Part shown: one piece after another, positions 14,233 to 43,097 of the stretch | Position numbering within the stretch: position 1 is the first letter of the stretch | Layout: every line of letters starts with the position of its first letter | From: Camelus ferus | Taxonomy: Eukaryota | Direction: 5' to 3' | DNA length: 64,000 nucleotides | Assembly: GCF_009834535.1 (NCBI RefSeq) | Contig: NC_045696.1 | Location: forward strand, 2,916,001-2,980,000 | Made by a program: the position numbers and the translations under genes | Notes under the pieces: generated by a model | Databases searched by the model: none | What the model saw: the letters and a program-made list of their open reading frames with translations, nothing else | What the model was told of the DNA's origin: nothing

Positions 14233-15755
14233 TCACTTTCTCTGGCCTCCCTTGCAGCGACGGCATGGGCCTGTGGTCCAGCTCTGCCCAGACTCTGGAC
14301 CTGTAGCTGGTGTACGGAGAAGCAGCCTCATGCTGGCAGCAGTGGCCACAGGGCCTGGGGGCCCAAGCACAGGTCCTGTGGCGCGAGGGGAGGTACTGCA
14401 CGTCTGGGGCTCAGATATAAGAGATGGGTGTTCTCATGGCATCAGCTCTATGAGGGCTTTGGGGCACCGGTCCTGCCTCAGACATGCTGAGCCCTGTCTC
14501 TGCACCTGCCCAGCACCCAGGAGGGCTCCCCCAGGTCCCCCGGGGAAAGACCCCCTTTCTGCTTGGTGCAGGCACAACCAGGGCCTGCGGCTGCCCCTGC
14601 GGCGGGCTGCCACTGCATCTTTCTAACCTGCATCCTCCTCGCAGCGGCCCAGCCTCTTCAGCCGACATCAAGAGTGGCCCGGCCGGGGCTGGGTGCTGGC
14701 CCCAGTTTTATTCCCTTTTGCAATTTGCTGAGTGAACTTGAGCAGATCACTTCCTCTCTTGGTGGCTTCTTCGTCACCAACGGGGAAAATAAAACGGTTC
14801 TGAAGCTCCAACAACCACACGGATTTTAAAAACGTCATTGCACTTGGAAAAGTATGACCATGTAAATCATGATTCAAGTTATTTAGGTGAGCTTTTGTTT
14901 TTTAAGAGGATCCTGAATTTTTTGTCTTAGAAAAATCTGAGCAATTCATACAAGATGTGAAAAGTGACCTTCAGTGAGTCCTATGATACGAATCAGCCAG
15001 GCAGAGTCTGGTGACGCCACGACCCTCACTGCTCTCGGGTTTGGATTCTGTGTACTCATCCCGAAGTCAGTGAATGTGGTGCCCATGAACCGGCAACCTT
15101 GGCCTTGACATTGACAGAGCCGTCCTGCTGTGTGCCTAACCAGGAACTACGCGCCACCTGGAATTCAAACATTGTTCCTTATCTTATGGATGGGGACACA
15201 AAGGGTGAGTGACTGGAAGCTGTTTTCCTCCCAGAGTTTTAGCTCCCTGATCACTGAATCAAGACTTGGTGATGATCTCGTAGGCATTTTCCAAAAATTA
15301 CCAAGAAACAACATAAAACCTCATGAAACCAGAGAGGATGGGTCAGCGGCTCACTTATATAAAAAGAGACACACACTGGATGTTCTGCAGAAGGCCGTCC
15401 CTGGAGGGGGCTGGGTCTGGGGGCCTCACGGTTTCACTCTGGGCTCTTCTGCATGGAGGGGACGGGGTGCCAGGCGCCGTCCTACTGTGACATGTACTGT
15501 GTTGCAAGTTATCCCCACACTTACAAACGCCCTGTGTTACTGAGTTACTTTTAAAATAGGATAAAACGCTTTAAGATTAGTCACTGTTCTGGCCCCTGTT
15601 ATCTTCAAAGGTAAATTCCGAGCAGCTCACAAAGAAGAGGCCCTCACCTTCGGCCTCCGCTCCCTGGCCCTCACCACACCCCACTGGGCCCCGTGGTTAA
15701 CTGAAACAGAGGTTAAAAGACGCATCAGGGAAAAGGAAACAAAAACCCCACTCAC

Positions 15756-15826
15756 GTTCGACCCGTTTCTCTAGCACGGCCAAGTGGTTTGCAACTTCAG
15801 CTTTCAGTTCGTTGATTTTAAATGCC
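15756..15826 (-). CDS. PDE9A: PDE9A coding exon 7 (71 nt): (R)[23 protein letters not shown]
   Basis: tttttcctcctcag|GGCATTTAAA...GTCGAAC|gtgagt; phase 2 to 1. Confidence 0.97.
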
Positions 15827-16705
15827 CTGAGGAGGAAAAAAACAAAACATCAATATAACTCACACAATCCTCAAAGTTAAAATGGGTTCAGCCAACGCCT
15901 GCTGGCTCCCTGCCAAGAGTGAGGTCTACAGGAGGCCAGTGAGGGGCGCGCAGGGGAGCTGCATCTGTGGAACTCACGGGGTTGGGGGTGCGGAGGAACA
16001 GGACACACCCTCCAGTTATCTCGAGGGTGCCTTCTCCAAGACGGGGACACGGAGCAGGTGTCTTTACGTCCCCACACCTGAGAGTGAGCAGACGCTCTCC
16101 GGGGGCGGGGGAAGGGGACCCGCGTCCTCTGCTCACAGCTGGCACAACCCAGCCCCCATCCCACCCTGCTGGGCGCAGACCGCCTTCAGGGGACCTGGTG
16201 TGCCCTCTCCAGGCCTCTGAGTCATACAGTTCAACAACTCCTGGGCTTTAAGAAAATACCCTCTGCCCTTTCCCCATTTTAACTACCCCAGGCCGGTTAA
16301 AATGCCAGTGAAGTAGCTAGGGAATGGAAAGCATTTCCTCCAGAACTGGCAGGCTGACTCGGAACGAGAGGAAGCCCCTCCAGCTACATGGGAGCTCAGG
16401 GAAACCCTCCTTTAAAGCTGTCCGCTCTTGTAGGTTCAAGTCCTGGCCCCAGAAAAGCCAGCTGAGAGAATGCTCAGCAACAGGGGCTCTCGTTCTGAAA
16501 GTGCCCCCGTGACACGGCCTGTGGTGCAAGGTGGACGCTTTCTGGCCCCCATCCGAGTCACAGAGCGATGTCACTGGGAAGGGGGCTTCTCAAGTGCTGT
16601 GTTGGAGCCTGGCGGCCAGGACAGCCTCAGAGCAAGGGGCCCAGCACCGCCGCCGAGAGAGGAAGCACCGCGCTCTGGGGACCGCGTGTCGAGGAGATTC
16701 TGCAC

Positions 16706-16760
16706 CTCGAGAACTGCTCGGCCACCTGGGTCAGCACGCTCTGGATCAGTTCTTCTTTCT
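16706..16760 (-). CDS. PDE9A: PDE9A coding exon 6 (55 nt): (E)KEELIQSVLTQVAEQFS(R)
   Basis: tcttgtcatctgcag|AGAAAGAAG...TTCTCGAG|gtgcag; phase 1 to 2, in frame with exon 4. Confidence 0.96.
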
Positions 16761-16857
16761 CTGCAGATGACAAGAGAGAGACTGATGGGAGAAACACTCC
16801 TCGGACCGTCAGGGGCCGCATCTGCATGCTGTGGGCGGTGGTGCTGACGCCGGGCAC

Positions 16858-16998
16858 CTGGAGGGACGCCCTGCCACCTGCCGGCAGCAGGGCCTCACCT
16901 GGGCCTGGGGTCTCCTACCACCTGCAGACGTGCTTTCGCTCCTGGGCTGCTGCTCGGCAGAGTGGCCGGGGCTGTGGTCCCCCTGCCGTTGGCACCAG
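16858..16998 (-). pseudogene. PDE9A: Degenerate pseudo-exon orthologous to human PDE9A alternative exon 5
   Basis: Lies 97 nt upstream of exon 6. Translates AGANGRGTT...GDPRPR*GPAAGRWQGVPP versus recalled human AGVEDKRTT...VEPRPREPQGCYQEGQRIPP. Acceptor reads ttttactg| (no AG); in-frame TGA at 16895-16897; ends CCTCCAG|gtgccc. Confidence 0.8.
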
Positions 16999-17559
16999 CA
17001 GTAAAAGGTGCTCAGGACAGGGTCCCTAAAGCCGGGACTAGTTTTCAGGCAGGGCCCTGGTCCATTTTATGAGGGCAATTACTATGACAAAGCGAGTTCA
17101 AGGCATATTTTAAGTGCAAAACACTGTTCTCGAGGCAGGTCCCAGGGAGGAAGTGGGCCGGGGGGAGCGAGGCTGCCCCTTGGTTGCCTGTCACATGAAA
17201 CCGGGCTGCGTGGCTGGTTTTACAAGGATCAGGCCCCAGGCTGAATACAACCTGCCCGTTTTCCTGTTTCCTGACTGGGCCCAACGCAGGATGCCTTGTA
17301 GGAAGGTGTGGGCTGTGTGGCCCTGTTCCAGCAACTCTGTGCCCTTGGGGAGGGGGAGCTCTTTTCTTGGCTCCGGGGCCCTCGGCTCACACCCTAAACA
17401 CTGAGGACCTAAATCAGGCTTCCTCCTGATTCCATGTTGACCTGAGTGAGGCCTAACCATCCACTAAAACCAACCCAAATCAAAACCAAACCAAGCCTGC
17501 CTAAACAAATAATCTCAATCATCCAATTTGGCAATGAGTCTCAAAAGCTCAGAACGTTC

Positions 17560-19820: not shown

Positions 19821-20457
19821 AATGTACAAAATGGAAAGAAAAAGAGGAATTTTCCTTTGGACTTTTGAGGTGGGTTCCTTTGAGCATTACAGGATTTTAA
19901 TGGCTAAATTTAATGTCCAGCCCAAGCAATAAGGATGCTTTTCGTCACTGTACCCCATACCTTCCTCCTCCGGCTCTGTCTGCAGCGCGGACATTCGGAC
20001 ATCCGTACTCCGGTCCGTGTCCTAGCTACACCTCACCTGCGTGCCACCCGGGCCAATGTATCTGTAATCCGCAGAAAGGGCACCAGCACAAAGGTGAGGC
20101 TGTAGCGAGGAAGCCCCACCGCCAGGTCGTGGTCCTCCCACTGATGTCACAGAGGTAATCTAGCCCCAGCTGCCTCTTTAGATACTGCACAATCTGCATT
20201 CTTTTCAAGGGGAAAAGAGCAAAAAAATGCCTCTGTGTAGAAGGCCAACCACACCCACACGTCCATAAACAGGGCTTGACCAGGAAATGGGCGCCTCCCC
20301 CGCCCCAGCCAAGCGCACTGGAATTCCTGCCGCGGGGCACTGTTTCCTCCCAGGGGACTTCGGCACTTACGCTGAACTGTGGCTTACTGTGTGCGAACTG
20401 CTCAGGACAGTGCCTGGCCCGTGGTGAGTGTCGCCTGTGAGCTGCTGCTGGTGCTGG

Positions 20458-26959: not shown

Positions 26960-27935
26960 TAAAAATGGGCCAGTGATCCAGAAAGACACTTCAAGAAAAG
27001 AAGATACAGCAAATAAACATCCGAAAAGATGCTTACTATTCCTAGGGAAACAGGAATTAAGACAGCAACGAGATACCACCACCCACCTGTCGGAACGGCA
27101 AAAACCCCAAACCCCGACGCCACCAAACGCTGGTGAGGACGGGGAGCACCAGGGGCTCTCGCTCAGTGCTGGTGGGAACACAAAATGCTGCAGCCAGTTT
27201 GGAAGATAGTTCCATGGTTTTTAAAAAAATTAAGTGTACAGTCCAGCAATTGCACTCCCGGGTATTTACCCAAAGAAGTTGAAAAGTTATGTCCACACAA
27301 AACCTTCACACAAACGCTCGCAGCAGCTTTGCTCACAATCGCCCAAACGCTGAAACACCCAAGACGCCCTGCGACAGGTGGGGGCTAAGCTACGGCACGT
27401 TCGTGCAGTGGAGCACTAACCAGCAAAGGAAAAGAGCTGTGAAGCCACAAAAAGGCACAGAGGAAACTTCAGTGCACCTAACTCAGTGAAGGAGACCAGT
27501 CTGAAAAGGCTACCCACTATGTGATTCCAACTTTGGACTTTCTGGAAAAGGCAAAACTGTGGAGATAGTAAAAAAGATCCGTGGTTGTAGGGGTTGGGCG
27601 AGAGGGATGGATGGACAGGTGGAGCTCAGAAGATTTTTAGGGCAGAGAATCTTCTCCTCCGGACAACCTTGTGGTGGTGGACACAAATCATCATGCATCT
27701 GTCAAAACCCACAGACTGTGTAACACAGAGAGTGAACACTGATGTAAACTATGGACTCTGCTTGATAACGATGCGTCCGTGTTGGTTTGCTGACCGTAAC
27801 AAACATAAATCTCAAATGGAGGATGTGGATGGTGGGAGAAGCTGCGTGTGTGGGGAGGGAACATGTGGGAACTCTCTGTGCTTTTCACTCAGTTTTGCTG
27901 TAAACCTAAAACTGCTCTAAAAAATAAAGTCTATA
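26960..27935 (+). mobile_element. L1MC1-like ORF2 end and 3' UTR
   Basis: aaaaatgggc...gacacttc; gtgaacactgatgtaaactatggact; tttgctgtaaacctaaaactgctctaaaaaataaagtctat terminus. Confidence 0.88.
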
Positions 27936-37640: not shown

Positions 37641-37788
37641 TATTTTTATTTTTTATTTTTTTGGAGGGAGGATAATCAGGTTTTTATTTATTCATATATA
37701 TATTTATTTTTAATGGTGGTACTGGGGATTGAACCCAAGACCTTGTGCATGTTAGGCACATGCTCTACCACTGAGCTGTACCCTCCCC
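37641..37788 (-). mobile_element. tRNA-derived SINE (Vic-1-like)
   Basis: gtactggggattgaacccaagaccttgtgcatgttaggcacatgctctaccactgagctgtaccctcccc; imperfect TSD tctagctttaaatt / tcaagcattaaatt. Confidence 0.92.
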
Positions 37789-39863
37789 ACTCAAGCATTA
37801 AATTATTATATGAAAAAATGAAAGATCTAAAATCAATGACCCAAGTTTCTGCCTTCAGCAACTAGAAAAAGAAAAGCACATTAGATCTGGATGAGTAGAA
37901 ATAAGAGAAGAAAACAATGAAACAGGATGCAGACAAACAACAGAGAAAACCAATGAAACCCCTTTCTTTGGGGGAAAAAATCAATACAATTTACAAATCT
38001 CTGGTTAGACCGATTACCTTTAAAAGAGAGAAGACGTAAATGTCTGATGTCTTGAGTGAAAGGGGGGATTTCACTGCAGGTCTGTGGACCTAAGGAGGAT
38101 GACAAGGACATATTTCAAACCACATCATGCCAACCAAGTCTTAGATAAAACTTAGGAGATGTGGAGACAGCTTCCTAAAATGAATCCCCTGATAAACAGA
38201 AAACCTGAATGCACCTATTAAATCAAATTCATAATTTAAAACCTTCCCACAAAGGAACTCCAAGCACAGGTGGATTCACTAGTGAATTCTACCCAGCACT
38301 TCGGGTAGAAATAATGCCAGCCCTACACAAACCCTTCCGGAAAACAGAGGAGGGCGAAACACTTCCCAGCTCACTTTATGAGGCCAGATGAATATAAGAA
38401 ACTGAAACTATGGACCAATATTCTTCATTAATACAGATGCAAGAATCCTTCACAGAACAGTTGCAAATTTAATCCAAAACAAACAGAAAATATGCCGTGG
38501 CCAAACAGAGACGACACCAGGAATGCAAGCTTAGTTTAATGTTTTAAAATCAATCAGTAAAATTCACTGCTAACAGGAAAGAGGAGAAAAAAAATGATGA
38601 CCTCAGTGCAGGCAGAAAAGCATTTGACAAAATTCAACACTGATTTGTGATTAAAACTCTCAACAAACTAGGAATAGAAATTTTTAAAAAAACCAAATGA
38701 ACTTTCAACCTGATAAAGGGCACCTACCAAAAACCCCTTCCACTGATATCATAATTGATGCTGAAAACCTTCACACGCTCCCTCTGACACTGAGAACAAA
38801 GCAAGAACCTCCACTCTCAGACCTTCCATTCCTCTCCTGTACTGGGCATCCTGGGCAGTGCAATAAAACAAGGAAACAAACAGAAGAAACAGAAAGCATC
38901 AGATTTGAAAGGAAGAAGCAATTCTCTATTCTCTATGTAGGAGATCGCAGGAAATCTACAGAAAATCCACAGAAAGGTACTAGATCTAACAGATGAGTTC
39001 AGCCGGGTCAATACACAAAAGCCAGCTATATTTCTATAAACTAAAAACTAACAGAAATTGAAACTTTATAAAAATCCATTGACGATGGCATTAAAAAATA
39101 TGAAATACATTGTGACACGTTTATCAACAGACATTCAAGAACTTTACCTTCACAACTACAACACATCAGTGAGGGACACTGAAGGAAACCCAGATGAATC
39201 GAGGGAGAGCATATTCACTGAATCAGAAGACTCCACATTCCTAATTCAGAAGTTCTTCCCAAAGTGTACTATATATTTAACATCATTTCAATCAAAATCC
39301 CAGCTGACTTTTTGGGTAGCAACTGACAGACTGATTCTAAAATTTATTTGAAAGTAAAAGGAGCCTGGAGTAAGTAAGACAGTTTTGGAAAAGAATGAAA
39401 CCCAAGGACTTGCACTTCCTGACTTCAAGACTTAACCACGAACTATGGAACCACGACAGTGTGGCACTGGTTTAAGGACAGGCGTGTGTATTAATGGAAC
39501 ATGACAGAGGGTCCAGAAAAAGACTCACATGTACGTGGTCAACTGATTTTTGGAGAAAGGTGCTGTGATAATTCAATGGGGGAAAAGACTGTTTTTTCAA
39601 CAAATGGTGCTGGAACAAATGGGTACCTGTACAGAGAAAGTGAACCTCAATTCTTTCTCCCTTACTGGAAGGCAGGCTGGACTTAAGGACTCGCTTCCCA
39701 AGGACAGAGCAAGAAAGGGGAAAAGAGTAACTTGACAGTGAAGATGTCTGTGGTTCGTGTGGGTGTCACGAACACTGTATTCTCCTTCCAAAAATCCACA
39801 CTCTGAGGCGGATCATGACAAAAGCACCAGACAGACCCAGACTGGGGGGCATCCTACAAGCTC

Positions 39864-39935: not shown

Positions 39936-40030
39936 GCGACGGGGGGAGGTAATTAGGTTTATTTATTTTCTAAGTGGAGGTGCTGGGGATTGAGCCCAGG
40001 ACCTCATGTAGGCGCTCTCCCACTGAGCCG
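39864..40030 (-). mobile_element. tRNA-derived SINE (Vic-1-like) with expanded (TTTA)n tail
   Basis: ggggaggtaattaggtttatttat...gtgctggggattgagcccaggacctc...ccactgagc. Confidence 0.88.
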
Positions 40031-40289: not shown

Positions 40290-40466
40290 GGGGGGCGGGG
40301 AGAGCTCAGTGGCAGAGTGCGTGCTTAGCACGCACGAGGTCCTGGGCTCAGTCCCCAGCGCCTCCGTTAAAATAGGTAAATAAATACATCTAATTATCGC
40401 CCCCCCAAACCAAAACCAAAACCAAAAAAAAAAAAAAAAAAAAATTTAAAAAGAGAAAGAAAAAAA
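40290..40466 (+). mobile_element. tRNA-derived SINE (Vic-1-like) with long A tail
   Basis: gagctcagtggcagagtgcgtgcttagcacgcacgaggtcctgggctcagtccccagcgcctcc...ctaattatcgccccccc + poly(A). Confidence 0.92.
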
Positions 40467-42348: not shown

Positions 42349-42392
42349 CAGAGAGTTGCTTGATGGCCACGGGTCTCACTTTGTAGGGGGTC
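42349..42392 (-). CDS. PDE9A: PDE9A coding exon 4 (44 nt): (R)TPYKVRPVAIKQLS
   Basis: cttctctcttgcag|GACCCCCTAC...CTCTCTG|gtaagg; phase 2 to 1. Confidence 0.97.
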
Positions 42393-42965: not shown

Positions 42966-43097
42966 GGTTTTTTTTTGGGGGGGGGCAATTAGTTTTATTT
43001 ATTTTTTTGTTGATTTTAATGGAGGCACAGGGGATTGAACCGGGGACCTCCTGCATGCTAAGCACGCCCTCTACCACTGAGCTACACCCTCCCTGCT
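42966..43097 (-). mobile_element. tRNA-derived SINE (Vic-1-like) with 12-bp TSD
   Basis: gggattgaaccggggacctcctgcatgctaagcacgccctctaccactgagctacaccctccc; TSD aagagttgataa at 42954-42965 and 43098-43109. Confidence 0.93.

What the first reader, a model, noticed from the sequence alone, without database searches (positions are those of the whole stretch)
16858..16998. Dead orthologue of PDE9A exon 5, missing the segment that encodes the human nuclear localisation signal
Seen: a 141-nt minus-strand segment 97 nt upstream of exon 6. It begins ttttactg|CTGGTGCC (TG where AG is needed), carries an in-frame TGA at 16895-16897 and ends CCTCCAG|gtgccc. Its ends translate as AGANGRGTT... and ...DPRPR*...QGVPP. 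Recalled knowledge: human exon 5 (180 nt) encodes AGVEDKRTT...RPLRDRRVVGL...EPRPRE...QRIPP, defines the long PDE9A1 isoform and contains the reported pat7 NLS PLRDRRV; mouse Pde9a lacks this insert. The RPLRDRRVVGL-coding part has no counterpart here. Inference: this species cannot make the nuclear PDE9A1-type isoform. The remnant could show whether the exon was gained in primates from pre-existing intron sequence or lost repeatedly.
Basis: partly seen in the sequence, partly recalled or inferred. Interest (0 to 1): 0.72.

Follow-up and report, generated by a model that had tools for sequence, protein, structure and literature searches.

The report
Camel counterpart of primate PDE9A exon
This stretch of a camel intron is the same DNA that monkeys, apes and humans splice in as an optional exon of the enzyme PDE9A; the camel does not appear to use it, and it is more likely raw material that different mammals recruited separately than the corpse of an ancient exon.

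Summary
The window is PDE9A of a Camelus species, probably dromedary. The 141-nt segment is orthologous to human exon 5: a profile scores 43.2, against maxima of 22.9 in 632 tiles and 23.2 in 500 shuffles. It lacks the acceptor and has a 33-nt deletion of the PLRDRRV block plus five small frameshifting indels. Three RNA contig sets show no splicing from it.

'Dead exon' is not shown. The human-frame insert was found only in catarrhines and diverges at about the neutral rate (7/60 versus 5/533 residues, human-macaque). Predicted isoforms of pinnipeds and alpaca use the same DNA with other acceptors and other frames. The 'TGA stop' lies inside the donor that the alpaca model uses.

Best reading: a proto-exon with latent splice sites, recruited separately in several lineages and closed in camel. 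The nuclear-isoform inference is weak. The signal is disputed in print and lost in 4 of 10 catarrhine variants. No DNA of other mammals was available, and the alpaca and pinniped exons are predictions.

The parts
16858..16998 (-). Orthologue of catarrhine PDE9A exon 5 (proto-exon); not coding in the human frame; 72% GC
   Evidence: alignment and controls; GC; unspliced contigs across it
16999..17000 (-). TG at the position of the catarrhine acceptor; pinnipeds have GG here (Met codon then Ala in their model)
   Evidence: read-through proteins P0215, P0221, P0167, P0042
17026..17027 (-). AG at the position where the pinniped predicted exon starts, 27 nt upstream of the catarrhine site; human has GG there; in camel a TGA follows at 17014-17012
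16899..16985 (-). Counterpart of the 87-nt, 29-residue cassette in alpaca RefSeq models X1-X3, in a different frame from human; closed in camel by GG at the acceptor position (16987-16986) and TAG at 16917-16915
   Evidence: (27 of 29 residues match)
16893..16901 (-). Donor CAG|GTGAGG at 16899|16898, which contains the reported TGA; strongest U1 pairing of 18 GT sites in the region
   Evidence: -11.6 kcal/mol; ten reference donors -5.9 to -11.6
16951..16952 (-). Site of the 33-nt deletion that removes the PLRDRRV-coding block; the sea lion insert keeps most of this block (25-nt gap against camel)
16852..16860 (-). Donor CAG|GTGCCC at 16858|16857, the position used by catarrhine exon 5 and by the pinniped models
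   Evidence: (-6.8 kcal/mol)
16761..16857 (-). 97-nt counterpart of human intron 5 (120 nt, from 40 read-through codons in P0215)
16706..16760 (-). PDE9A exon 6, intact and spliced to exon 7
42349..42392 (-). PDE9A exon 4, intact, phase-1 donor; joined directly to exon 6 in most Camelus protein models

Best explanation
The segment is intronic in camel and is skipped. It descends from a GC-rich block near the 3' end of PDE9A intron 4 that already carried a usable GT donor about 100 nt before exon 6 in the ancestor of primates and laurasiatherians. It becomes an exon only where an upstream AG and an open frame happen to coincide. Catarrhines use an AG that gives the 180-nt exon 5; pinniped models use an AG 27 nt further upstream (198 nt, partly another frame); alpaca models use an acceptor 13 nt downstream with a camelid donor (87 nt, wholly another frame). 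Camel has no good acceptor and has stops in the catarrhine, pinniped and alpaca frames. Inserts are tolerated because the exon 4/6 junction lies in a flexible linker. Shown: orthology, the camel lesions, lack of detected splicing, the discordant frames in protein models. Inferred: the ancestral state, the direction (gain), the alpaca acceptor sequence, and that the alpaca and pinniped models are real transcripts.
For: Profile search with the inserts: 47 hits among 4199 candidates, being 44 named catarrhine proteins, 1 unnamed protein identical to the human insert, the sea lion cluster and alpaca; no New World monkey, strepsirrhine, rodent, bat or other ungulate. Of 236 proteins held, 208 had both anchors: 131 no insert, 57 catarrhine type, 3 alpaca type, 2 pinniped type, 15 other. 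Saimiri, Aotus, Cebus and Nycticebus proteins seen lack an insert. The catarrhine AG is absent in both laurasiatherian lineages seen. Human-macaque: 7/60 differences in the insert, 5/533 elsewhere (p 4e-5); a neutral simulation at 5-8% divergence gives 5.8-9.0 (the divergence range is recalled). RNA: exon 6-7 joint at depth 47-61, remnant at 3-4.4 like other intron, no joint from it. Candidate acceptors have pyrimidine fraction at most 0.71 against 0.76-0.94 for nine reference sites. Insert is coil with pLDDT 25-30 between the N-terminal domain and a helix starting at 147.
Against: The block is somewhat better conserved than the next intron: 82% at fixed positions against 74% (human, p 0.37) or 65% (macaque, p 0.04). 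Eight residues upstream of the human acceptor translate identically in human and sea lion. The donor position is shared by catarrhines and pinniped models and has a GT in camel. Much of the pinniped insert is in the human frame (44% identity). Absence from a word-indexed protein database is weak, and only 120 of 454 hits were listed. No DNA of another mammal was obtained. Low pLDDT also follows from a shallow alignment (36 rows).
Confidence: 0.65

Rival explanations
1. True dead exon: an alternative exon existed in the boreoeutherian ancestor (probably from the upstream AG to the shared donor), survives in altered form in catarrhines and pinnipeds, and was lost many times, including on the camel line.
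For: Shared donor position; upstream AG in camel at the pinniped start site; pinniped insert 44% identical to human with both ends in frame; exon block 82% against intron 65-74%; the 33-nt gap is a camel-line deletion because sea lion keeps the block.
Against: Needs many losses (New World monkeys, rodents, bats, most ungulates and carnivores in the proteins seen); the pat7-coding bases are in different frames in human and pinnipeds; near-neutral divergence in catarrhines; pinniped models could be projections from the human protein (inference).
Confidence: 0.22
2. The segment is still used at low level in camel, through the strong 16899 donor, as a stop-containing (poison) cassette or a short open cassette, or as part of a regulatory element that explains its conservation.
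For: Donor at 16899 pairs with U1 as well as the best real donor; alpaca models use it; 8 of 41 in-frame acceptor-donor pairs are open; one wild-camel model (P0008) draws an exon here in a third frame.
Against: All 5 in-frame pairs ending at 16899 carry a stop; acceptors are weak; no joints in three contig sets. Contigs drop rare forms and the one raw-read run gave only 2 reads, so low inclusion is not excluded.
Confidence: 0.11
3. Chance resemblance of a GC-rich intron stretch to human exon 5.
For: Local methods give weak or no signal.
Against: End-to-end score about twice the best of 1132 controls, ends at the right splice positions, same place before exon 6, and independent matches to sea lion and alpaca inserts.
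Confidence: 0.02

Closest known systems
Human PDE9A exon 5 (isoforms PDE9A1, PDE9A17, PDE9A18; pat7 motif PLRDRRV; PMC1647287)
   Same: Orthologous DNA, same position before exon 6, same donor position, both end peptides recognisable.
   Different: No acceptor, 39 nt shorter, six indels, pat7 block deleted, no splicing detected.
Proto-exons of species- and lineage-specific mammalian exons (bioRxiv 10.1101/009282)
   Same: Unique intronic sequence, alignable to a lineage-specific alternative exon, with a splice-site dinucleotide one change from consensus.
   Different: Here the exon is coding, and the same block appears as an exon in gene models of three lineages with different boundaries and frames.
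MAPT exon 4a, prototype versus independent-exonization debate (PMC13511027)
   Same: Fast-evolving optional insert in a disordered linker; the same gain-or-drift question.
   Different: Much shorter, length not conserved (29, 60, 66 residues), and the lineages use the same orthologous DNA rather than different DNA.

Membership tests
Orthologue of human PDE9A exon 5 | Significant end-to-end similarity at the syntenic position | tested here: met
   43.2 against maxima 22.9 (632 tiles) and 23.2 (500 shuffles); via back-translated protein, not human DNA
Functional PDE9A1-type exon | AG acceptor, GT donor, open frame | tested here: not met
   TG acceptor, TGA, six indels
Functional PDE9A1-type exon | Spliced into mRNA | tested here: not met
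   no joint from the segment in 3 contig sets (two look like one data set filed twice); raw-read run had 2 reads, so rare inclusion is not excluded
Functional PDE9A1-type exon | Encodes a pat7 motif | tested here: not met
   block deleted; no pat7 in pinniped or alpaca inserts either
Dead (lost) exon | An ancestor of this species spliced it as a coding exon | tested here: inconclusive
   distribution and frames lean against; shared donor and modest extra conservation lean for
Dead (lost) exon | Frame and dN/dS conserved among lineages that keep it | tested here: not met
   frames differ among catarrhine, pinniped and alpaca inserts; catarrhine divergence near neutral by residue counts; no true dN/dS without DNA
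Proto-exon | Intronic sequence alignable to a lineage-specific exon elsewhere, itself not spliced | tested here: met
Proto-exon | Outgroups lack the exon by genome alignment and RNA-seq | not testable with these tools
   no mammalian genomes or their reads available; only protein models seen
Proto-exon | Derived from unique sequence rather than a transposon | tested here: inconclusive
   no self-BLAST or tandem-repeat hit over the segment; no repeat library was searched for it

The most novel reading that the evidence does not exclude
One orthologous intron block in PDE9A has been turned into a real, translated cassette exon three times independently (catarrhines, pinnipeds, alpaca line), each time with different splice sites and reading frames, while camel, the alpaca's close relative, has it closed by single-base differences. 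The insert would then matter as a spacer, or not at all, and the human 'nuclear signal' would be an accident of frame. Camel against alpaca would be a two-species natural experiment on exon birth.
Probability: 0.3. Interest if true: 0.55.

Novelty: new member of a known kind. Interest (0 to 1): 0.3.

Why it matters
PDE9A is a drug target, and recent reviews propose aiming at the pat7 motif of PDE9A1 (PMC11688560, PMC13270117). If exon 5 is a catarrhine gain that evolves neutrally and loses the motif in several lineages, that idea rests on a young, unconstrained peptide that rodent and livestock models would not have. The camel-alpaca pair would also give a compact test of which base changes create an exon. 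The camel segment alone is ordinary.

Tried and rejected
Own genome: none held. Plain tblastn and local nhmmer were too weak to show orthology and were replaced by an end-to-end profile test. Buffalo P0012 has the human isoform's length (593) by coincidence and no exon 5 insert. Search of 50%-identity representatives gave 2 hits: one catarrhine-type read-through fragment and one weak repeat-like hit not followed up. The single-cell raw-read run gave 2 reads, too few to count junctions; the exon 4-exon 6 junction lies outside the 1.7 kb laid, so it was not observed. Earlier findings of the scan: nothing. No paper on this exon's evolution was found in searches; the library lacks most subscription journals. 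Bird, turtle and bat inserts at the same junction do not resemble exon 5 and were set aside. In one search the script snapped the exon 6 reference acceptor to 16758 instead of 16760.

Full report
Setting. The window holds PDE9A on the minus strand; exons 2, 3, 4, 6, 7, 8, 9 and 10 were located. Joined, they give an open frame of 187 residues, identical to dromedary and wild-camel models, 1 residue from Bactrian and 2 from alpaca models. A wild-camel model differs from the window at one residue inside the segment, so dromedary is most likely. No whole genome is held, and a metagenome scan gave no other mammal's DNA. All cross-species comparisons below therefore rest on proteins.

Observation. 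The TG, the TGA, the donor and the 97-nt distance are as described. Human exon 5 was taken from fetched protein P0040. Local searches barely see the likeness: tblastn showed no human hit on the segment in the visible output, a local frameshift-aware score tied the best of 193 tiles, and nhmmer gave E 0.064 at best. An end-to-end profile alignment is clear: human 43.2, macaque 49.1, sea lion 45.5, with 0 of 632 tiles and 0 of 500 shuffles reaching these. Against human the camel has indels of -1, -33, -2, +1, -5 and +1. The 33-nt gap removes the RPLRDRRVVGL codons. Sea lion keeps most of that block, so the gap is best read as a deletion on the camel line.

Is it used in camel? Four runs were laid on 15700-17400. 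In three contig sets the exon 6-7 joint has depth 47-61, the segment has 3-4.4 like the neighbouring intron (2.4-5.4), contigs cross it unspliced, and no joint leaves it. Limits: X6 and X7 look like one data set filed twice and their RNA label is a guess; X2 may contain DNA; contigs drop rare forms; the raw-read run gave 2 reads; exon 4 was outside the stretch. No candidate acceptor reaches the pyrimidine content of the reference sites (at most 0.71 against 0.76-0.94). Of 41 in-frame acceptor-donor pairs 8 are open, none at the strongest donor.

What other mammals do with this DNA. Of 236 proteins held, 208 had both flanking anchors: 131 without insert, 57 catarrhine type, 3 alpaca type, 2 pinniped type, 15 other; 28 lacked an anchor and were left out of the count. 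A profile search with the inserts returned 47 proteins: 44 named catarrhines, 1 unnamed human-identical read-through, the sea lion cluster and alpaca. Alpaca RefSeq models X1-X3 carry 29 residues that match window 16985-16899 at 27 positions, in another frame than human. In camel that frame has TAG and GG at the acceptor position; the alpaca AG is inferred from the protein junction. Sea lion and fur seal models carry 66 residues that start 27 nt upstream of the human site and end at the human donor; a grey seal model starts inside it. The same camel bases read GHSAE against human and PLCR against sea lion and alpaca. Read-through proteins show the acceptor states: the catarrhine site is AG in catarrhines (inferred from use), GG in pinnipeds, TG in camel; the pinniped site is AG in camel and GG in human. 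All non-primate inserts are predicted models whose RNA support I did not see. The alpaca one cannot be a projection of the human protein, since the frame differs; the pinniped ones could be.

Constraint. Human and macaque differ at 7 of 60 insert residues and 5 of 533 others (p 4e-5); simulated neutral change at 5-8% gives 5.8-9.0 (the range is recalled). Of 10 distinct catarrhine insert sequences, 4 lack pat7: two gibbons, vervet and colobus. Against this, the block is 82% identical to camel at fixed positions and the next intron 65-74% (p 0.37 and 0.04), and eight upstream codons translate alike in human and sea lion, so some older constraint is not excluded. A model of human PDE9A1 puts the insert in coil with pLDDT 25-30 between the N-terminal domain and a long helix (mean pLDDT 59, shallow alignment). 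Among 8 solved-structure sequences matched, the full-length constructs are the 533-residue form without the insert.

Mechanism. Most likely (0.65) the block is a proto-exon: a latent donor near exon 6, an acceptor that appears at different places in different lineages, and a linker that tolerates inserts of any frame. Camel has no working acceptor and stops in all three used frames, so the block is skipped. The rival (0.22) is an ancestral exon lost many times; low-level or regulatory use in camel gets 0.11; chance 0.02.

The nuclear claim. PMC1647287 (parts 1 and 2 of 4 read, plus passages) places pat7 in exon 5, states that mouse and rat have only the PDE9A2-like form, and reports PDE9A1 excluded from the nucleus, contrary to Wang 2003. 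PMC11688560 and PMC13270117 (passages) repeat Wang's nuclear result and propose the motif as a target. PMC13095499 (two passages) cites Patel 2018 for PDE9A6/13 moving to the nucleus in brain. Wang 2003 and Patel 2018 were not seen. Lacking exon 5 therefore does not show that camel lacks nuclear PDE9A.

Comparison with what is known. New mammalian exons mostly arise from unique intron sequence that is alignable in relatives (bioRxiv 10.1101/009282, passages; PMC2592719, abstract). The camel segment fits that kind. The gain-or-drift question parallels tau exon 4a (PMC13511027, passages). Searches found no paper on the evolution of this exon; no supplements were opened, and exon-age tables in such supplements may already list it.

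Verdict. A real feature, correctly seen, but over-read: an ordinary non-coding orthologue of a probably young primate exon. What lifts it slightly is the apparent reuse of the same DNA in three frames and the camel-alpaca contrast, both awaiting junction reads. Interest 0.3; novel case probability 0.3, interest 0.55 if true.

Noticed in passing
window 19961 to at least about 20200, minus strand: An upstream exon ending AAG|GTATGG at 19961 is spliced straight to exon 6 in contigs of X6 and X7 (depth 5). It has an ATG at 19994 in frame with exon 6, so it may be an alternative first exon giving a PDE9A without the N-terminal domain. Bat models also start just before exon 6.
   Followed up: partly
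window 38018-38089, minus strand: 72-nt open cassette with AG and GT, used in Bactrian camel models P0004 and P0007 between exons 4 and 6; identical in the window.
   Followed up: partly
window 27088-27197, minus strand: Matches, with a frameshift, the 37-residue cassette of emballonurid bat models (E 7e-5). It looks like an antisense L1 fragment (recalled label), so the match may be to a repeat copy and not to the orthologous site.
   Followed up: partly
window 37660-37785 and about ten related copies (e.g. 39940-40017, 40290-40420, 42966-43093): tRNA-derived SINE family; resembles the camelid Vic-1 SINE (recalled). ARAGORN calls one copy tRNA-Val.
   Followed up: no
proteins P0002, P0005, P0006, P0007 (after exon 10, beyond the window's low end): Camelus models carry a 21-residue insert after exon 10, at the start of the catalytic domain, absent from alpaca and other models seen.
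   Followed up: no
window 16761-16830, minus strand: The short intron before exon 6 has two ATGs in frame with exon 6 and no stop; catarrhine read-through of the same intron is also open.
   Followed up: no
window 15918: One contig of run X2 shows A>G at depth 2.4; allele or error.
   Followed up: no
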